Part shown: piece after piece, positions 10,076 to 36,135 of the stretch
Numbering within the stretch: the first letter of the stretch is position 1
How the letters are laid out: every line of letters starts with the position of its first letter
From: Prorocentrum cordatum
Lineage: Eukaryota
DNA length: 64,000 nucleotides
Assembly: GCA_963575745.1 (NCBI GenBank)
Contig: CAUYUJ010000259.1
Span: 62,001 to 126,000 of the forward strand
Direction of reading: 5' to 3'
The notes under the pieces: generated by a model
Seen by the model: the letters and a program-made list of their open reading frames with translations, nothing else
What the model was told of the DNA's origin: nothing
Databases searched by the model: none
Made by a program: the position numbers and the translations under genes

Positions 10076-11820
10076 TTTTGAAGGTGTTCTTGGCTCGTCT
10101 CGTCTTCCAACAAGAGCGTTATATCACTTGGACCAGATTTGCACCAGGCGCGGTCCCAGCCGCCCGCGGCTGGACGGACACAAACACTATCGTAGTAGTT
10201 TGGGGACTTGGTTGCATATAGTCAGAATCTTGCTCGAACAACAGAAAAATGACTGCTTTTCTGACGGGTTGTAAGCGAGAGGCTGGCAGCCAACAGGTTG
10301 CTAACATTCCAGCGCGCATTTCCTGGACGGGGAACGGCGGCCGCATCGGCCGGGGCCCCTTCTCGTCGACGACCATTTGCCGACGGCAAAATCGCCGCCA
10401 ATCCAGCAGTCCCAGGCCCCCGACAGTCATGAATTATTCATGGCGTTCGTTTTGTACTTTTTATTGCGATGTCCTGAATATTGTGTTTCATGTTTCCTTG
10501 CTTTGGTTTTTTTCATCAAGTGCCGATTTTTCTGGTCAGTGACACCGCGTGACAAGACCTTTTCAGGGTTGCTCGCCCTTGTCAAGCCTTGATATCCCGT
10601 GGCAGCCCTTTGCAGGCCTCAAGCAGCGTCGGGGCCTGTCAAGGCTCACGGCTGTTGTCAAGGGTTGAATGCTGACCGATTTGGTCGTAAATGCCAGACG
10701 ATGGGCGATACAGGGCTCCCCGCGAGCGCGTGGTGTTCTGCTGCGCGCAATCGACTAGTCGCCATGTTGGTAGGGAAGCTAGTGTGCATCCTTAGCAGTG
10801 GCCGACACGATTTCACATGGCCTGCGCGGTGCGCGGGTCATTCGCCGCGCGTGCGCGAGACCGTGGCGAGTTCTGTAGTGTTCATTACCGGAAAGTCGCC
10901 ATGCTGGCTTGGGGAGTAAACTGAACGCTTCGCGGTGACAGATTTTATATTGAAGTGAACATGGGTTCTGGTGTACGATTTCACGCCTCATCAATAAGGA
11001 GACCCCAACACGCACGTGCGCGTGAACACTTCTGTTATGTCCACGGTGGGAAAGTCGCCACGCTAGCTTGCAACCCAAAAAGGCTCCTCAGCGTTGATTG
11101 ACAGGACTTCGGGGGACCCGCGCCGTGGGTGGGTCACCCGCCGCACGTGCTCGCGTGCATGAGGAGTTCTGCAATGTCCACGGCAAGACAGTCGCCATGC
11201 TGGCTTGGCAACCCAAGCAAAACCTTCCAGTAACCGACAGGATTTCGGGTGGCCCGTGCGGTGGGTGGGTCACCCGCCGCACGTGCGCGCGCGTGGCGAG
11301 CTTTGTCATGTCCACAATCCGGCGGTCGCCATGTTGGCGTGAAAATCAAGATGGAGCCTGAGCGGTGGCATATTTGACGTTGAAGTTGGTTTGGGTTCTG
11401 GCGTCAGAATTGCCCACAAGCGCGTGAAACGTCTTGCGTTGTCCACAATGGAAAAGACGGCGGCTCGTGAAGTGAACTCTTAGCGGCGGCCTACAGGATT
11501 TCGGGTGCCCCGCGCGGTGGGTGGGCCACCAAACGCGCGCGCAAGTGGCGTGCTCTGTAGTGTCCACGGTAGGAAAGCCGCCACGTTGGTCTTGAAGCTG
11601 AAAGTGCGCCCTTACCGGTGACCTTAACATGTTACGCATTGCCGAAGATAGCAAAGACATCCTGTTTGCGAGAAACTTAAAGCGAACCCGTTCCGTTCAC
11701 CCAGCGCGCGCGGGTCACGCGTGTCACTCGCCAGGCGCGTAGAGAAGATTTCGACCTCGTCCAATAGCAGCTACTTGCAGTGCGCGTGGCCCTTGCAAAC
11801 GCAAAACAAACGGCCCTCTC
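10076..11820 (+). repeat. Left terminal inverted repeat (~1.7 kb) containing subterminal repeats with a ~130-150-bp period
   Basis: GTTGCTAACATTCCAGCGCGCATTTCCTGGACGGGGAACGGCGG (~10297) reverse-complements to ~35857. GGCTGTTGTCAAGGGTTGAATGCTGACCGAT (~10649) reverse-complements to ~35571. TTGAAGTGAACATGGGTTCTGGTG (~10951) reverse-complements to ~35257. Confidence 0.85.
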
Positions 11821-12069
11821 TCTTCCTCCTCGTCTTCTGCCTTCCCCTCCTGCGCCTTAGGGAAAAGGAAAAGGATGATGAGGAGGAGGAAGAGACCACG
11901 ACGACGACCACGACCACGACCACGACCACGGTGACAACGACGCCGACGATGACGACGGGGAAAAATAGGGGGGAACAGGGGGGGGGGAAGTGGGGGAGGG
12001 CGACGGATAGGCCCCGAGCAAGCCAGCGTCGTGGTTCGAGATTGCGCGCCCACATATCACATATTCTCC

Positions 12070-12470
12070 ACTGCGGTTGATGTGGTTCTCCGTTTCTGCA
12101 TTTGGCCTCGTTCTCGGTTGTTAACGTTGGTTTCGTTTTTGAATTCTACATGTGGCTTCGTTTGTGGAGGCTACGTCTGGCTTTGTTTTACTACACCTGG
12201 CTTCATTTTCGGTTGCTGCAATTGACTTCGTTTTTGACTCGCTGCACCCGGCCTCGTTTCTGATTGGCTTTGTTCAGGGGTTGCTACATGTGACCTCGTT
12301 TGTGAATTGCTAAACTTGGCCGTAGTTTCGTTCAAACTCGTGTACTGCAATAGTGAATTGGCTCGTGGTTTCGACCTTTACTACAGTTGGCCTCGTTTTT
12401 GAGTTAATACATTTGGCCTCGCTGCTGCTTGCTACAGATGGGCTCGTCTATGGCTACTACACTTTTGATT
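12070..12470. repeat. Degenerate tandem repeat with a TTGGCCTCGTTTT...GCTACA core
   Basis: TGGC(C/T)TCGTTT recurs every ~35-40 bp. Confidence 0.6.
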
Positions 12471-12959
12471 TCGCCCGGCGAATACCGGGCCTGTTGCTAT
12501 ACTTCCCCCCGCCGCGCGCCGGGGGAATCCGATGCCGGGGCCCCCGGCATGTTTCCCGGGCGCGGGGCTCCCCCAGACGAGCGGGCCGCGCGGGGGGCGC
12601 CAGCCGACGAACGGCCGTCAGGCGAACCCTCGAGCGGGCCCCACCCCTGGGAACGATGGGGCAAAAACGCCGCGCACGACGGGGGCCAGTGTTCCAACCT
12701 GGTTACACTCCAAAGCCCTGGAGCCAACACAGGGAAAAGGATGAGGGGGAGGAGGACCAGGAGGAGAAACAGGAGTGAGAGGAGGAGGAGGAAGGTGAGG
12801 AGGAAAAGGAGGAGGAGGAGGGGGAGGAGGAGGAGGAGGAGGACGAAGAGGAGGACGAGGAGGAGGATGATGATGAGGAGGAGGACGGGGAATACCTCGA
12901 GGCCCCCCTCAAACTATCTGAACTATCCATTAACCATTTTTTTTCAGAGTTATGTTAAT

Positions 12960-33500: not shown

Positions 33501-33725
33501 CGGCTCGCAGAGGTCGAGGGCCTTGATTGCGCTCAGGATCCGAGCCTCCAACGCACTGACGCCCTCGACCTCGTTGCCGATGTAAAGCGACTCGACCTGC
33601 TCGTTGATGAGCGGCGCCAGCGCGATGGTGCGCCCCTCCTTCGAGCGCTTGGACCTCACGCCAGCTACTCTGGCCTTAGTTACACATGTGCGCGTCGCGT
33701 GACACTCGGGGGCAAAGCTCGCCAT
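30556..33725 (-). pseudogene. Multi-exon cargo gene with an N-terminal HPxNRxG (ParB/Srx-like) region and a C-terminal SET-like tail
   Basis: Segments: AVHPDNRDGAGLVPYGVHDLLGILVVRGWDDDETSKALACE; TIRDFNVKLAVGSGPLLP...ATVRCSHTTATLR...GLRYSVI...CPELMKLLAQSGN; C-terminal PFWHVQ....HNVEL...SFPTWDNVKDIKKGQLI. The domain names are motif-level inferences. Confidence 0.55.
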
Positions 33726-34389
33726 TTGGGCAACGTTTGCAGAGTGCGAGCATGCTCACCAACATTGCAACGCCACAACCACATACCGCGTCACGCGAGC
33801 AACGCCCACCGCGGATTATGCGAACGTGCTCGCCAACATTGCAACGCCGCAACAACATACCGCGTCACGCGAGCAAAGCGGACCGCGGAAACTAAGGCGG
33901 ATACCTCCCACGCGGCCTTGACTGCGTTGTTCGACAGCGCCGTAGCGATCGCGACGCGACTGATACAGCTCGGGCAAGGGCGGCAGGGGCGGCAAAGGCT
34001 GCGGCACTCGGACCAACACTGCTACAACATAACAGAAACCAGACAACTGAAAACTGCATTGGGAAATACAAGAGAAGCAGAAAACAGGAACTGAAATTGG
34101 GAAACAATTCTGTTTGACAACGCAGAAAACATACAATTGAACGCGGAAAAAATCAAAACAGTGAAAAGTGTATTGGCGATGTTTTAATTTAGATCCTGAT
34201 AGTTGTCGAATAGTTTGCTGCATGTTGAGGTCGGGTAGTTATATGATAGTTTAAGGATAGTTCCGCAAACTATTCCTAAATTACCTTATGTTTTTTTCTA
34301 CAGCTATTCATGAACTGTTCATAATCATGCTCGATATCTATTCTGAGATAGTTTGAGGTGGGCCTCAAAGTAGGAGGAAAAGGGGGGGG

Positions 34390-36135
34390 GGAGAGAGGGG
34401 GGGCAGTTCTGTCGATGCAAGGATCGCGCGCACTGCCAAACAAAATCTGTCTGTGGACAAAGTCGACATCTCCACGCGCCGCGCAGGCGACTCCCGTCAC
34501 CCGCGCGTGCTCTGTGACCGCAAGGGGCCCGCTTTAGCGCCTTCGCAAACGAGATGTCATTCTCATCTTCGCAAGCGTGCAGGAGTTATGGTAACTTCAA
34601 TTCCAAAGAGGTCACCGCTAAGGGCGCGCTTCAACTTCCAAGGCCAACATGGCCATTTCCCGACCGTGGACATTCCTGCGCTCGCCACGTGCGCGCGCGG
34701 CGTGCGACCCACCCACCGCGCGGGTCACCCGGGATCCTGTCGACCGCCGCTAGGAGTTCATTCGCGTTCCCAGGCCAGTGTTTGTTTTGCGGACATCGCG
34801 AAGCTCCACAGGCGCGCGCGTGGGGAGCTCTGGCACCAAAGCCCATGTTCACTTCAACATCAAGTCCGTCACCGCTGAGGATTCATTTTAGTTCCCGGGC
34901 CAGCATGGCGTCTTTCCCATTGTGGACCTTACAGAATTCGCTGCGCGCGCAGGCGCGACGGGTGACCCACCCGTGGTCGCCCGAAATCCTCTCGGTCACC
35001 GCCAAGGGGGCTCACTTGGGTTGCCAGAGGGACAACGCGACGTTTCTACCGTGGACATTCCAGAACTCGCCTTGCGCGCGCACGCGCGGCGGGCGACCCG
35101 CCCACTGCGCGGGTCACCCAAACTCATGTCGGCCACCGCTAAGGCATCACTTGGATTTCCAAGCCGGCATGCCGACTTTCCTAGTGTGGGGATACAGAGA
35201 TCGTCACGCGATTGCTCGTGCAGGATTTCTGCATGTATGATGTGCGAAACCGCACACCACAACTCATGTTCGCTTCAAAATCAAATTTGCCACCGCGAAG
35301 GGCTCATTCTAGTTTCTGGACCAACATGGCTTTTTCGTTTTTTTGTGCAACGCAGGACTCGCCACGCGCTCGCGCGCGCGCGGCGGGCGACCCGCCCGTC
35401 GCGCGGGTGACCCAGAATCGTGTCGGTGACCGCAAACGTTTCATTTCAATATCTATACACACATGGCGACTATTCGATCGTGAACACAACAGAACTCCAC
35501 GCGGGTGGGGGACTCTGTCTTGTCCATCGTAGGAAACGTACGCCCAAACCAATGTTAACTCGGAAATCGCATCGGTCAGCGTTCGAACCTTGACAACAGC
35601 CATACGCCTTCACAGGCCGCTGCGCTGCTGAAGGCTTGCCACAGGCGGTCGAGGTCTATCAAGGCTTGACGCGGGCGATCAACGCGCGCCAATGGCTTGT
35701 CATGCGTTGCCAAAGAAGAACAAAGCACTTAAACAAACACTGGGACAATCAAACATAAAACGCAGCATCCGAAAACAACATACACACCGAACATCATGAA
35801 CAATGCGCGCCGTCGGCGCGCGGGCGCCGACGGAAAAAAGGCTCAGCAAGTGTTCCCGCCGTTCCCCTTTCGGGAGATGCGCGCTGGAATGCTAGCAGCC
35901 CGTTGTTTGTCGAGCGTCCGTTTGCAGTTCGACAGGGAACCACTTGTTTTTCTTGAGCAGGTTTTCAAATTCATGCCACCGAATCTGCTAAATACGAATG
36001 TCGTTTTTCCCTCCCCCCCCCCGAGCGCGCGGAGAGGAGTGGAAGGCGCACCCGGCTCAAATCTTGGCCAAATGGCGTAATTGTTTGGGCAACGGCATGT
36101 TGAGCAGACACTGGACACACATGTCTTTCCAAATG
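34390..36135 (-). repeat. Right terminal inverted repeat (~1.7 kb)
   Basis: Reverse-complement partner of 10076-11820. The ORF track shows the same peptide on opposite strands: PPFPVQEMRAGMLA in 10119..10430 (-) and PPFPFREMRAGMLA in 35796..36080 (+). Confidence 0.85.

What the first reader, a model, noticed from the sequence alone, without database searches (positions are those of the whole stretch)
10076..36135. Giant 26-kb cargo-carrying CACTA-like transposon with kilobase-scale TIRs
Seen: at least six collinear inverted alignment blocks between 10076-11820 and 34390-36135, enclosing a DDE transposase remnant and three or more unrelated multi-exon genes, all on the minus strand. Known: CACTA/CMC elements normally have short TIRs plus subterminal repeats and encode TnpD/TnpA. 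Inference: this is a large multi-gene mobile element family, and the diverged TIRs suggest an old copy.
Basis: partly seen in the sequence, partly recalled or inferred. Interest (0 to 1): 0.85.

Follow-up and report, generated by a model that had tools for sequence, protein, structure and literature searches.

The report
Worn giant transposon in a dinoflagellate
A 26,000-base stretch bounded by long mirror-image repeats looks like a decayed copy of a large jumping gene of a marine dinoflagellate, driven by an enzyme family that no protein database has yet named.

Summary
The inverted arms are real: 10540-11763 pairs with 35712-34454 at 68% identity over 1287 bp, E 3e-124. The block 10077-36135 sits exactly between two same-strand (GTA)n arrays.

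On the minus strand it holds a two-gene core. ORF2 (20372-18188) belongs to a ~700-aa family with no Pfam, NCBIfam or PDB match. Its invariant residues follow the D..D..C(2)C..H(3)H..E order of the EnSpm/Transib/Plavaka ("CMCT") transposases. ORF1 (22761-21575) is its conserved upstream partner in 13 marine metagenome loci. A third multi-exon gene (33476-30592) has Prorocentrum cordatum relatives.

The window's ORF2 has lost the second Cys, an invariant His and its detectable C-terminus, so it is a remnant.

Contigs of one public DNA run cover all of 16156-36155 with many 80-95% identical variants (2-9 per listed site). The whole block, not just the transposase, is therefore multi-copy.

"CACTA-like" holds only loosely:
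- the termini are not CACTA;
- no Tnp2 domain is detected;
- the "kilobase TIRs" are inverted arrays of ~135-bp subterminal repeats.

Arm divergence does not date the copy. No whole genome was available, so paired arms and gene order elsewhere remain untested.

Verdict: probably a new CMCT-like lineage. Interest is moderate.

The parts
3828..10076 (+). Left flank: degenerate (GTA)n satellite array with a frequent GTC variant
   Evidence: TRF gives period 3, 2079 copies, 70% matches. Base composition and top 9-mers are the same as in the right array, on the same strand.
10077..11800 (+). Left inverted arm: terminal ~200 bp, then an array of ~135-bp subterminal repeats
   Evidence: blastn against the right arm gives 68% identity over 1287 bp, E 3e-124, backed by a global alignment. 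A 24-nt and a 34-nt motif occur 3 times each, all on the + strand. The end reads TTTTGAAGG.
18188..20372 (-). ORF2: transposase-like gene (CMCT-type motif order), multi-exon and degenerate
   Evidence: The A2 profile hits six collinear segments covering profile positions 47-560 of 691, with i-E values from 2e-7 to 3e-28. tblastn with full-length relatives agrees. D1 (LDGVNPSD), D2 (GDEPG), KHHxALH and ERKH are kept. CxxC has become CAWR and DWxH has become DWSR. The C-terminal ~130 profile positions were not found.
21575..22761 (-). ORF1-like gene: the conserved upstream partner of ORF2
   Evidence: An HMM of 12 metagenomic ORF1 proteins hits ORF 21847-22893(-) at E 4.6e-9 (two stretches) and ORF 21527-21805(-) at E 1e-4. 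The hits are collinear. tblastn with L032 ORF1 gives E 0.001.
30592..33476 (-). Gene 2: multi-exon gene of unknown function
   Evidence: P0134 (483 aa) matches at 74-84% identity and P0135 (620 aa) at 46-76% per segment. Both are 'unnamed protein product [Prorocentrum cordatum]', and they map in 3 and 7 collinear segments. Read by eye, one intron has GT-AG ends and two have GC donors. Pfam, NCBIfam and PDB give no hit.
14484..16819 (-). Candidate further gene (chain of ORFs with GC3 of 0.73-0.89); unverified
   Evidence: Codon-position GC only. No Pfam hit.
27507..30207 (-). Candidate further gene (chain of ORFs with high GC3); unverified
   Evidence: Codon-position GC only. No Pfam hit.
34414..36135 (-). 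Right inverted arm: subterminal repeat array plus terminus
   Evidence: Same evidence as the left arm. The motifs occur 5 and 3 times, all on the - strand. The reverse complement of the end reads CATTTGGAAAG. Contigs of run X1 show variants that skip 497 or 790 bp between sub-repeats (table 5).
36136..40600 (+). Right flank: the same (GTA)n satellite on the same strand, with a 100-N assembly gap at 36862-36961
   Evidence: TRF gives period 3, 1485 copies, 75% matches. The N run is and the composition.

Best explanation
The block 10077-36135 is one decayed copy of a large (about 26 kb) cut-and-paste DNA transposon family of a dinoflagellate.

Its engine is a two-gene core on the minus strand. 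ORF1 has a lysine/alanine/proline-rich tail in its metagenomic relatives and is inferred to bind DNA. ORF2 is a ~700-aa enzyme whose invariant residues follow the order D, D, C-x2-C, H-x3-H, E. That order is typical of the EnSpm/Mirage/Chapaev/Transib/Plavaka/RAG1 ('CMCT') transposases.

Inferred mechanism: ORF2, perhaps with ORF1, binds the repeated ~135-bp subterminal units that fill the two 1.7-kb inverted arms, pairs the ends, and cuts and re-inserts the whole unit. This copy landed in a long (GTA)n satellite.

This copy can no longer supply the enzyme. The second Cys of CxxC and an invariant His are replaced, and the C-terminus is undetectable. It could move only with enzyme from another copy. 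The other minus-strand genes, gene 2 at least, travel with the family.

Shown:
- the arms and the same-strand flanks;
- family membership of ORF1 and ORF2;
- the lost residues;
- the multi-copy state of 16-36 kb.

Inferred:
- catalysis;
- binding to the sub-repeats;
- that the arms and interior move as one unit.
For: - Arms: 68% identity over 1287 bp, E 3e-124. The sub-repeat motifs occur only in the arms within the 64 kb, on + at the left and - at the right.
- Flanks: the same (GTA)n/GTC satellite on the same strand on both sides. The inverted symmetry therefore stops exactly at the block edges, as expected for an insertion.
- ORF2 family size: 111 representatives in the 50%-identity cluster library, 149 clusters, and 59 metagenome loci with an intact ~2.1-kb ORF.
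- ORF2 motifs: in 28 full-length members the invariant residues are D137, D240, C259, C262, H509, H513 and E531. [quoted passage not shown]
- Protein-language-model look-up: Plavaka-bearing clusters come next after the family's own clusters, at 0.93 and 0.92. This is a lead only.
- ORF1-ORF2 pairing: 13 of the 16 neighbouring ORFs compared are one family. Twelve lie upstream on the same strand. The window has the same order and strand.
- Multi-copy state: X1 contigs cover all 30 bins of 16156-36155. Of 4775 pieces, 69 are >=99% alike, 281 are 95-99%, 2009 are 90-95% and 2416 are under 90%. At the 40 listed sites, 2-9 contigs each carry a letter other than the window's. Only 0.01 of what was laid runs on into unlike sequence.
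- No relative was found in 185,579 prokaryote species' genomes or in IMG/VR viral contigs.
Against: - No whole genome is held. No second copy with both arms, the same gene order and different flanks has been seen. X1 contigs are short (about 400-800 bp) and cannot show gene order, and many laid pieces lie on simple repeats.
- The link of ORF2 to known transposases rests on motif order and an embedding score. Pfam finds no Transposase_21 or Plavaka domain in 0 of 88 family proteins at its cut-offs. A profile against PDB sequences finds nothing even at E 10. No fold could be predicted.
- The termini are a poor match to each other (about 7 of 11) and only the right one starts with CA. The target duplication cannot be read in a microsatellite.
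- Seven of 59 metagenomic loci carry a relict spliced-leader motif in front of ORF1 or ORF2. Many family members may therefore be retrocopies or host-kept genes rather than active transposons.
- None of 18 metagenome loci >=4.5 kb shows terminal inverted repeats.
- A 100-N gap lies 726 bp outside the right end.
Confidence: 0.6

Rival explanations
1. This is not one mobile unit. The 26 kb is ordinary repeated dinoflagellate DNA, such as a segmentally duplicated unidirectional gene block. It happens to contain a retroposed or host-kept ORF1-ORF2 pair. The two arms are separate copies of an unrelated satellite-like repeat.
For: - Dinoflagellate genes are mostly unidirectional and highly duplicated (PMC10666404, passages read), so 'all on the minus strand' and 'multi-copy' are not specific to a transposon.
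- Relict spliced-leader motifs before ORF1/ORF2 in 7 of 59 loci show that the pair spreads or persists outside a TIR element.
- No TIRs were found in 18 loci >=4.5 kb.
Against: - The arm sub-repeat motifs occur nowhere else in 64 kb and are strictly + on the left and - on the right.
- The inverted symmetry ends exactly where one satellite, on one strand, resumes on both sides.
- The window's ORF2 has introns and no spliced-leader relic (<=5 mismatches) in the block. It is therefore not a retrocopy.
- Summed contig depth over the right arm (6-35) is in the range of the interior bins. This is a weak argument, because the tool warns that depth does not rank parts.
Confidence: 0.2
2. This is a composite structure. 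Two independent insertions of a ~1.7-kb non-autonomous element, in opposite orientation, entered the same (GTA)n array and now bracket unrelated DNA. They mobilise it, if at all, like a composite transposon.
For: - The arms are only 68% alike, as two old independent copies might be.
- The terminal ~200 bp are weakly alike.
Against: - The DNA between the arms contains no (GTA)n array, although both outer flanks do. Two insertions into one array should leave array sequence on their inner sides.
- The interior is itself multi-copy, with similar numbers of variants as the arm.
Confidence: 0.1
3. This is an integrated virus-like element (Polinton/Maverick, polinton-like virus or virophage), which also have long TIRs and sizes of 15-30 kb.
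For: Only the size and the long inverted ends.
Against: - No polymerase B, integrase, capsid, packaging ATPase or protease domain in 177 stop-to-stop ORFs >=90 aa.
- The ORF2 family is absent from IMG/VR contigs.
- GC content and introns look like the host's.
Confidence: 0.02
4. This is an assembly artefact. A mis-join inside satellite DNA created the inverted arrangement.
For: A 100-N scaffold gap at 36862-36961 in the right array. Long microsatellites are hard to assemble.
Against: - The gap is outside the block.
- The arms are 32% diverged, not a duplicated read-through.
- An X1 contig matches 35599-36009 without a difference (table 8).
Confidence: 0.03

Closest known systems
CMCT clade of DNA transposons (EnSpm/CACTA, Mirage, Chapaev, Transib, Plavaka, ESTA, Lanisha; RAG1), as defined in PMC12730594
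   Same: - The ORF2 family has invariant D, D, C-x2-C, H-x3-H and E in that order. This is the shared signature named in the paper.
- From recall, untested here: the spacing D-19-CxxC and HxxxH-18-E resembles that of RAG1.
- The right end begins 5'-CA on its own strand.
   Different: - No significant sequence match to any Pfam model of these groups or to RAG1/Transib chains in the PDB.
- The left end lacks CA.
- The TSD is unreadable.
- The conserved partner ORF1 has no known relative.
CACTA / En-Spm elements of plants, including 20-kb gene-carrying ones (e.g. the 20.5-kb soybean element, PMC2613891, seen as search listing only)
   Same: - Large size.
- Subterminal repeat regions in inverted orientation.
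- A two-protein coding core.
- Extra gene content.
- Multi-exon transposase gene.
   Different: - No CACTA/CAC termini.
- No Tnp2 domain.
- The repeat regions are ~1.7 kb of ~135-bp units rather than short motifs over a few hundred bp.
- The host is a dinoflagellate.
Plavaka transposons of fungi (Pfam PF18759)
   Same: They are the nearest named clusters in the language-model look-up: 0.93 (38% of members carry PF18759) and 0.92 (100% carry it). They have the same C(2)C / H(3-4)H pattern according to PMC12730594.
   Different: - PF18759 is not detected in any of 88 family proteins.
- Plavaka termini are TGT..ACA or CATCA..TGATG with 2-3 bp TSDs. The termini here are TTTTGAAGG and CATTTGGAAAG.

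Membership tests
CACTA/EnSpm superfamily (strict sense) | Termini 5'-CACTA (or CAC..GTG) | tested here: not met
   The left end reads TTTTGAAGG. The reverse complement of the right end reads CATTTGGAAAG.
CACTA/EnSpm superfamily (strict sense) | 3-bp target site duplication | tested here: inconclusive
   Both flanks are (GTA)n, so any 3-bp repeat there is expected by chance. The triplet phase is compatible with a TSD of 0 or 3 bp.
CACTA/EnSpm superfamily (strict sense) | Transposase with Tnp2 / Transposase_21 domain (PF02992) | tested here: not met
   No hit in the window ORFs even at E 10. Among 28 full-length relatives, 1 hit at E 0.15 and none at the cut-off. 0 of 15 and 0 of 45 further relatives.
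CACTA/EnSpm superfamily (strict sense) | Subterminal repeat regions at both ends | tested here: met
   Units of about 135 bp with two conserved motifs, 3+3 on the left (+) and 5+3 on the right (-), found only in the arms.
CMCT clade (PMC12730594) | [quoted passage not shown] | tested here: met
   Invariant D137, D240, C259, C262, H509, H513 and E531 in 28 of 28 full-length family members. The window copy itself keeps D, D, HxxxH and E but has CAWR in place of CxxC.
CMCT clade (PMC12730594) | Termini 5'-CA..TG-3' (in most cases) and TSD of 2-5 bp | tested here: inconclusive
   The right end ends ..AAATG (CA on its own strand) but the left end has no CA. The TSD is unreadable in the microsatellite.
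CMCT clade (PMC12730594) | RNase-H-like catalytic fold related to Transib/RAG1 | not testable with these tools
   Structure prediction was not accepting jobs. The sequence profile against the PDB gave no match.
Plavaka | PF18759 domain; termini TGT..ACA or CATCA..TGATG | tested here: not met
   No PF18759 hit in 88 family proteins. The termini differ. The only link is an embedding score of 0.92-0.93.
Polinton/Maverick and polinton-like viruses | Protein-primed polymerase B, rve integrase, capsid proteins, packaging ATPase | tested here: not met
   No such Pfam domain in 177 ORFs >=90 aa of the block. Exons shorter than 90 aa were not scanned.
Mobile element family in general | Several copies with the same ends and interior at different sites | tested here: inconclusive
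   Many diverged variants of every part of 16-36 kb exist in run X1. However, contigs are too short to show ends plus interior together, and the genome is not held.

The most novel reading that the evidence does not exclude
This is the first structurally delimited member of an undescribed, dinoflagellate-wide lineage of RAG1/Transib/EnSpm-clade transposons. The lineage has a two-gene core (ORF1 + ORF2) and kilobase-long inverted arrays of subterminal repeats. It grows to 26 kb by carrying further conserved multi-exon genes. It is abundant in ocean metagenomes. It also leaves intronless copies that bear a spliced-leader relic, meaning the same genes spread or persist through RNA as well.
Probability: 0.35. 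Interest if true: 0.7.

Novelty: new variant of a known kind. Interest (0 to 1): 0.55.

Why it matters
Dinoflagellate genomes are huge and repeat-rich, yet in my searches I met no description of an autonomous-type DNA transposon with defined ends for them. Those searches were 6 full-text searches and passages of 3 papers. They cover open-access text only and not Repbase.

If the reading holds, the ORF2 family is a large expressed group of CMCT-type enzymes, the clade that gave rise to RAG1, in a major phytoplankton lineage. The family has no Pfam model, 149 clusters at 90% identity and 59 metagenome loci.

The 26-kb element would also show how multi-gene blocks are copied around these genomes. 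That could explain part of the 'dispersed duplicates' reported for Prorocentrum cordatum.

It gives concrete handles for experiments: the sub-repeat motifs, ORF1 and ORF2.

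Tried and rejected
- Own genome: not held.
- Earlier notes of this scan: nothing relevant by place, sequence or words.
I replaced it with stop-to-stop ORFs >=90 aa, so short exons were not scanned.
- Language-model look-up on the window's own ORF 18561-19298: no usable hit.
- Structure prediction of the ORF2 family: the tool accepted no jobs at four tries, so there was no fold search.
- PDB sequence searches: none for the ORF2 profile at E 1 or E 10, none for the ORF1 profile, none for P0135.
- NCBIfam: none.
- Profile search for bridging relatives with a Pfam label: all listed hits (the best 120 of 149) carry no Pfam domain.
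- The search for related loci with the 28-sequence alignment failed for lack of a conserved stretch. It worked with an 8-sequence subset.
- Prokaryote genomes and viral contigs: no relative.
- Looking for element ends in metagenome loci: no terminal inverted repeats in 18 loci >=4.5 kb. All-against-all blastn showed similarity confined to the ORFs and gave no usable borders. tblastx of loci against the block found only ORF2 and weak ORF1; the other rows are short low-identity pieces.
- Sequencing runs: only one holder (X1, 0.24 of words), and no RNA holder listed. There is therefore no evidence on expression from runs. X2 and X3 matched almost only simple repeats.
- Rfam and tRNA scans of the window: none.
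- Pfam on 89 ORFs >=100 aa of the flanks (53 overlapping satellite or simple-repeat tracts left out): nothing but one low-complexity sub-threshold hit.
- Virus-like element and assembly artefact: considered and given low odds (see rivals).

Full report
**1. The observation**

The window is GC-rich (about 0.55-0.70 in the block). It is flanked by two stretches with GC 0.40 and strong G-over-C skew. Tandem Repeats Finder shows that these stretches are degenerate (GTA)n arrays at 3828-10076 and 36136-40600.

Both arrays read GTA on the + strand. They have the same base composition and the same commonest variant (GTC). A 100-N gap lies in the right array at 36862-36961.

Inside the edges the inverted repeat is real:
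- The repeat finder lists three collinear arm pairs.
- blastn joins them into one alignment, 10540-11763 against 35712-34454, at 68.4% identity over 1287 columns, E 2.7e-124. It also finds 10291-10340 against 35905-35856 at 86%.
- A global alignment keeps about 55-74 identities per 100 columns from ~10250 to ~11800. It is weaker in the outer ~200 bp.

The many off-diagonal hits and self-hits show that the arms are built of sub-repeats of roughly 135 bp. Two motifs taken from these units occur 3+5 and 3+3 times in the 64 kb. All of them lie in the arms, all on + at the left and all on - at the right. Nothing else in the window resembles the block, apart from one 54-bp hit.

**2. What is inside**

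Pfam finds nothing above its cut-offs in 177 stop-to-stop ORFs of >=90 aa.

*ORF2.* ORF 18953-19873(-) has relatives: 5 proteins, the best at 79% identity. An exhaustive HMMER search with 18561-20456(-) found 111 cluster representatives, many of them ~700 aa long.

Twenty-eight full-length members align with these invariant residues: D137, D240, C259, C262, H361, K507, H509, H513, E531 and H534.

The profile maps to the window in six collinear minus-strand segments covering profile positions 47-560 of 691. The segments lie in different frames and are separated by short gaps, at least one with GT..AG ends (and the sequence). It is thus a multi-exon gene.

| Feature | State in the window copy | Relatives compared |
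|---|---|---|
| First D | kept (LDGVNPSD) | |
| Second D | kept (GDEPG) | |
| KHHxALH | kept | |
| ERKH | kept | |
| CxxCxNC | CAWRHNRA | 4 of 4 close relatives that cover it, and 28 of 28 distant ones, have it |
| DWxH | DWSR | 8 of 8 have it |
| C-terminal ~130 profile positions | no detectable match | |

Sources. 'Remnant' is a fair word.

*ORF1.* Fifty-nine marine metagenome loci carry an intact, intron-free ORF2. Among 18 loci of >=4.5 kb, 13 of the 16 neighbouring ORFs that I compared form one family of ~450-570 aa. It has a conserved N-terminal ~300 residues and a K/A/P-rich tail. Twelve of them lie upstream on the same strand.

An HMM of 12 of them hits the window at 22761-21922 (E 4.6e-9) and 21733-21575 (E 1e-4). 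The hits are collinear and lie directly upstream of ORF2 on the same strand. The window therefore holds the family's two-gene core.

*Gene 2.* The stretch 33476-30592(-) matches two 'unnamed protein product [Prorocentrum cordatum]' entries in 3 and 7 collinear segments. P0134 matches at 74-84% identity and P0135 at 46-76% per segment. Read by eye, one intron has GT-AG ends and two have GC donors. Relative to the P0135 model there is one in-frame stop near 32777 and a frame change near 32700. These may be intronic. Its function is unknown; Pfam, NCBIfam and the PDB give no hit.

*Other ORF chains.* Two further minus-strand ORF chains (14.4-16.9 kb and 27.5-30.2 kb) have coding-like GC3 but were not verified.

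**3. The host**

Three observations point to a dinoflagellate:
- The named relatives of gene 2 are dinoflagellate proteins.
- A relict spliced-leader motif lies at 62323-62343(+) with 2 mismatches. The motif is recalled from memory. None of 100 shuffles of the window gave a match.
- Some introns have GC donors.

Against this, the closest ORF2 fragments (95% and 82% identity) carry the EukProt label of a Pyramimonas transcriptome. I did not resolve this conflict.

In the metagenome loci the same leader motif (<=4 mismatches) occurs in 7 of 59 loci. It is always on the coding strand. In six loci it lies at the 5' end of ORF1 or ORF2, and in the seventh (L007) at the start of an unrelated downstream ORF. 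Simple shuffles gave a mean of 0.02 matches. The ORF2 family has no relative in the prokaryote or viral collections.

**4. Is it a family?**

No genome is held. One public DNA run (X1) holds 0.24 of the sampled words. I laid it on 16156-36155 at >=80% likeness.

| Likeness of laid X1 pieces | Number (of 4775) |
|---|---|
| >=99% | 69 |
| 95-99% | 281 |
| 90-95% | 2009 |
| under 90% | 2416 |

- X1 covers all 30 bins.
- At each of the 40 listed variable sites, 2-9 different contigs carry a letter other than the window's. These sites include ORF2, ORF1, the unassigned interior, gene 2 and the right arm.
- Only 0.01 of what was laid runs on into unlike sequence.
- Some contigs skip 497 or 790 bp between arm sub-repeats.

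Many pieces lie on simple repeats (the bins at 16.8, 26.2 and 28.2 kb). The tool warns that depth cannot rank parts.

I conclude only that every part of these 20 kb exists in several diverged variants in that organism. Contigs are too short to show that arms and interior stay together.

**5. Classification**

[quoted passage not shown] It also states that they mostly have 5'-CA..TG-3' ends and make 2-5 bp TSDs.

The ORF2 family shows exactly this order: D137, D240, C259-x2-C262, H509-x3-H513, E531. The language-model look-up places Plavaka-bearing clusters next after the family's own clusters.

This is resemblance, not demonstrated homology:
- No Pfam model matches.
- No PDB chain matches.
- No fold could be predicted.

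The termini fail the CACTA test. The left reads TTTTGAAGG. The reverse complement of the right reads CATTTGGAAAG, which shares only CA with the expected end. The TSD cannot be read in (GTA)n.

**6. Verdict**

The most likely reading (0.6) is a decayed copy of a large DNA transposon of a new CMCT-like lineage, inserted in a satellite. It has long inverted arrays of subterminal repeats that probably serve as binding sites.

The main rival (0.2) is that the arms and the interior are not one unit.

The arms differ by 32%, while most right-arm variants differ from this copy by about 5-20%. Arm divergence is therefore a family trait. The age of the copy shows instead in the lost invariant residues.

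Noticed in passing
window 62323-62343 (+) and ORF 62279-63802 (+): A relict dinoflagellate spliced-leader motif (2 mismatches; 0 of 100 shuffles gave a match) sits at the 5' end of a 508-aa open frame on the + strand. This looks like a retroposed gene. It has no Pfam hit.
   Followed up: partly
L018 167-187; L002 2194; L003 2464; L037 469; L052 1506; L033 2868; L007 3984: Spliced-leader-like motifs (0-4 mismatches) occur in 7 of 59 metagenome loci, all on the coding strand. In six loci they lie at the 5' end of ORF1 or ORF2, and in L007 at the start of an unrelated downstream ORF. Shuffles gave a mean of 0.02. Intron-free family copies may be retrocopies of the transposon's mRNAs.
   Followed up: partly
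window 3828-10076 and 36136-40600: More than 10.7 kb of (GTA)n satellite with a regular GTC variant lies on both sides of the block. Whether this element family prefers such arrays as targets is unknown.
   Followed up: partly
window 45856-48416: The same 85-87-bp unit (two tandem copies each, at 45856-46029 and 47391-47563) is followed each time by a (GAT)n array (46075-46968 and 47624-48416). This is a duplicated repeat module.
   Followed up: no
window 48919-50657 and 53310-53804; 55256-56471: A 27-bp tandem repeat occurs in two arrays (64 and 18 copies). A 499-bp tandem repeat has 2.4 copies. Many inverted matches link 46-54 kb with 60.8-61.5 kb.
   Followed up: no
window 25850-26057: A near-perfectly placed 103-nt palindrome (79% complementary, 2 nt between the arms) lies inside the block.
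   Followed up: no
proteins P0006, P0011: The closest ORF2 fragments (95% and 82% identity) are labelled as a Pyramimonas (green alga) transcriptome in EukProt. All other clues point to a dinoflagellate. This may be contamination of that transcriptome or a mislabel.
   Followed up: no
proteins P0135, P0240: Two >90% identical gene-2 relatives lie two gene numbers apart on one 274-kb Prorocentrum cordatum contig. Gene 2 is therefore locally duplicated there.
   Followed up: no
L027 3583-4722 (-): An ORF with a weak retroviral-integrase-core match (rve, E 4e-4, below the cut-off) lies downstream of ORF2 in one metagenome locus.
   Followed up: no
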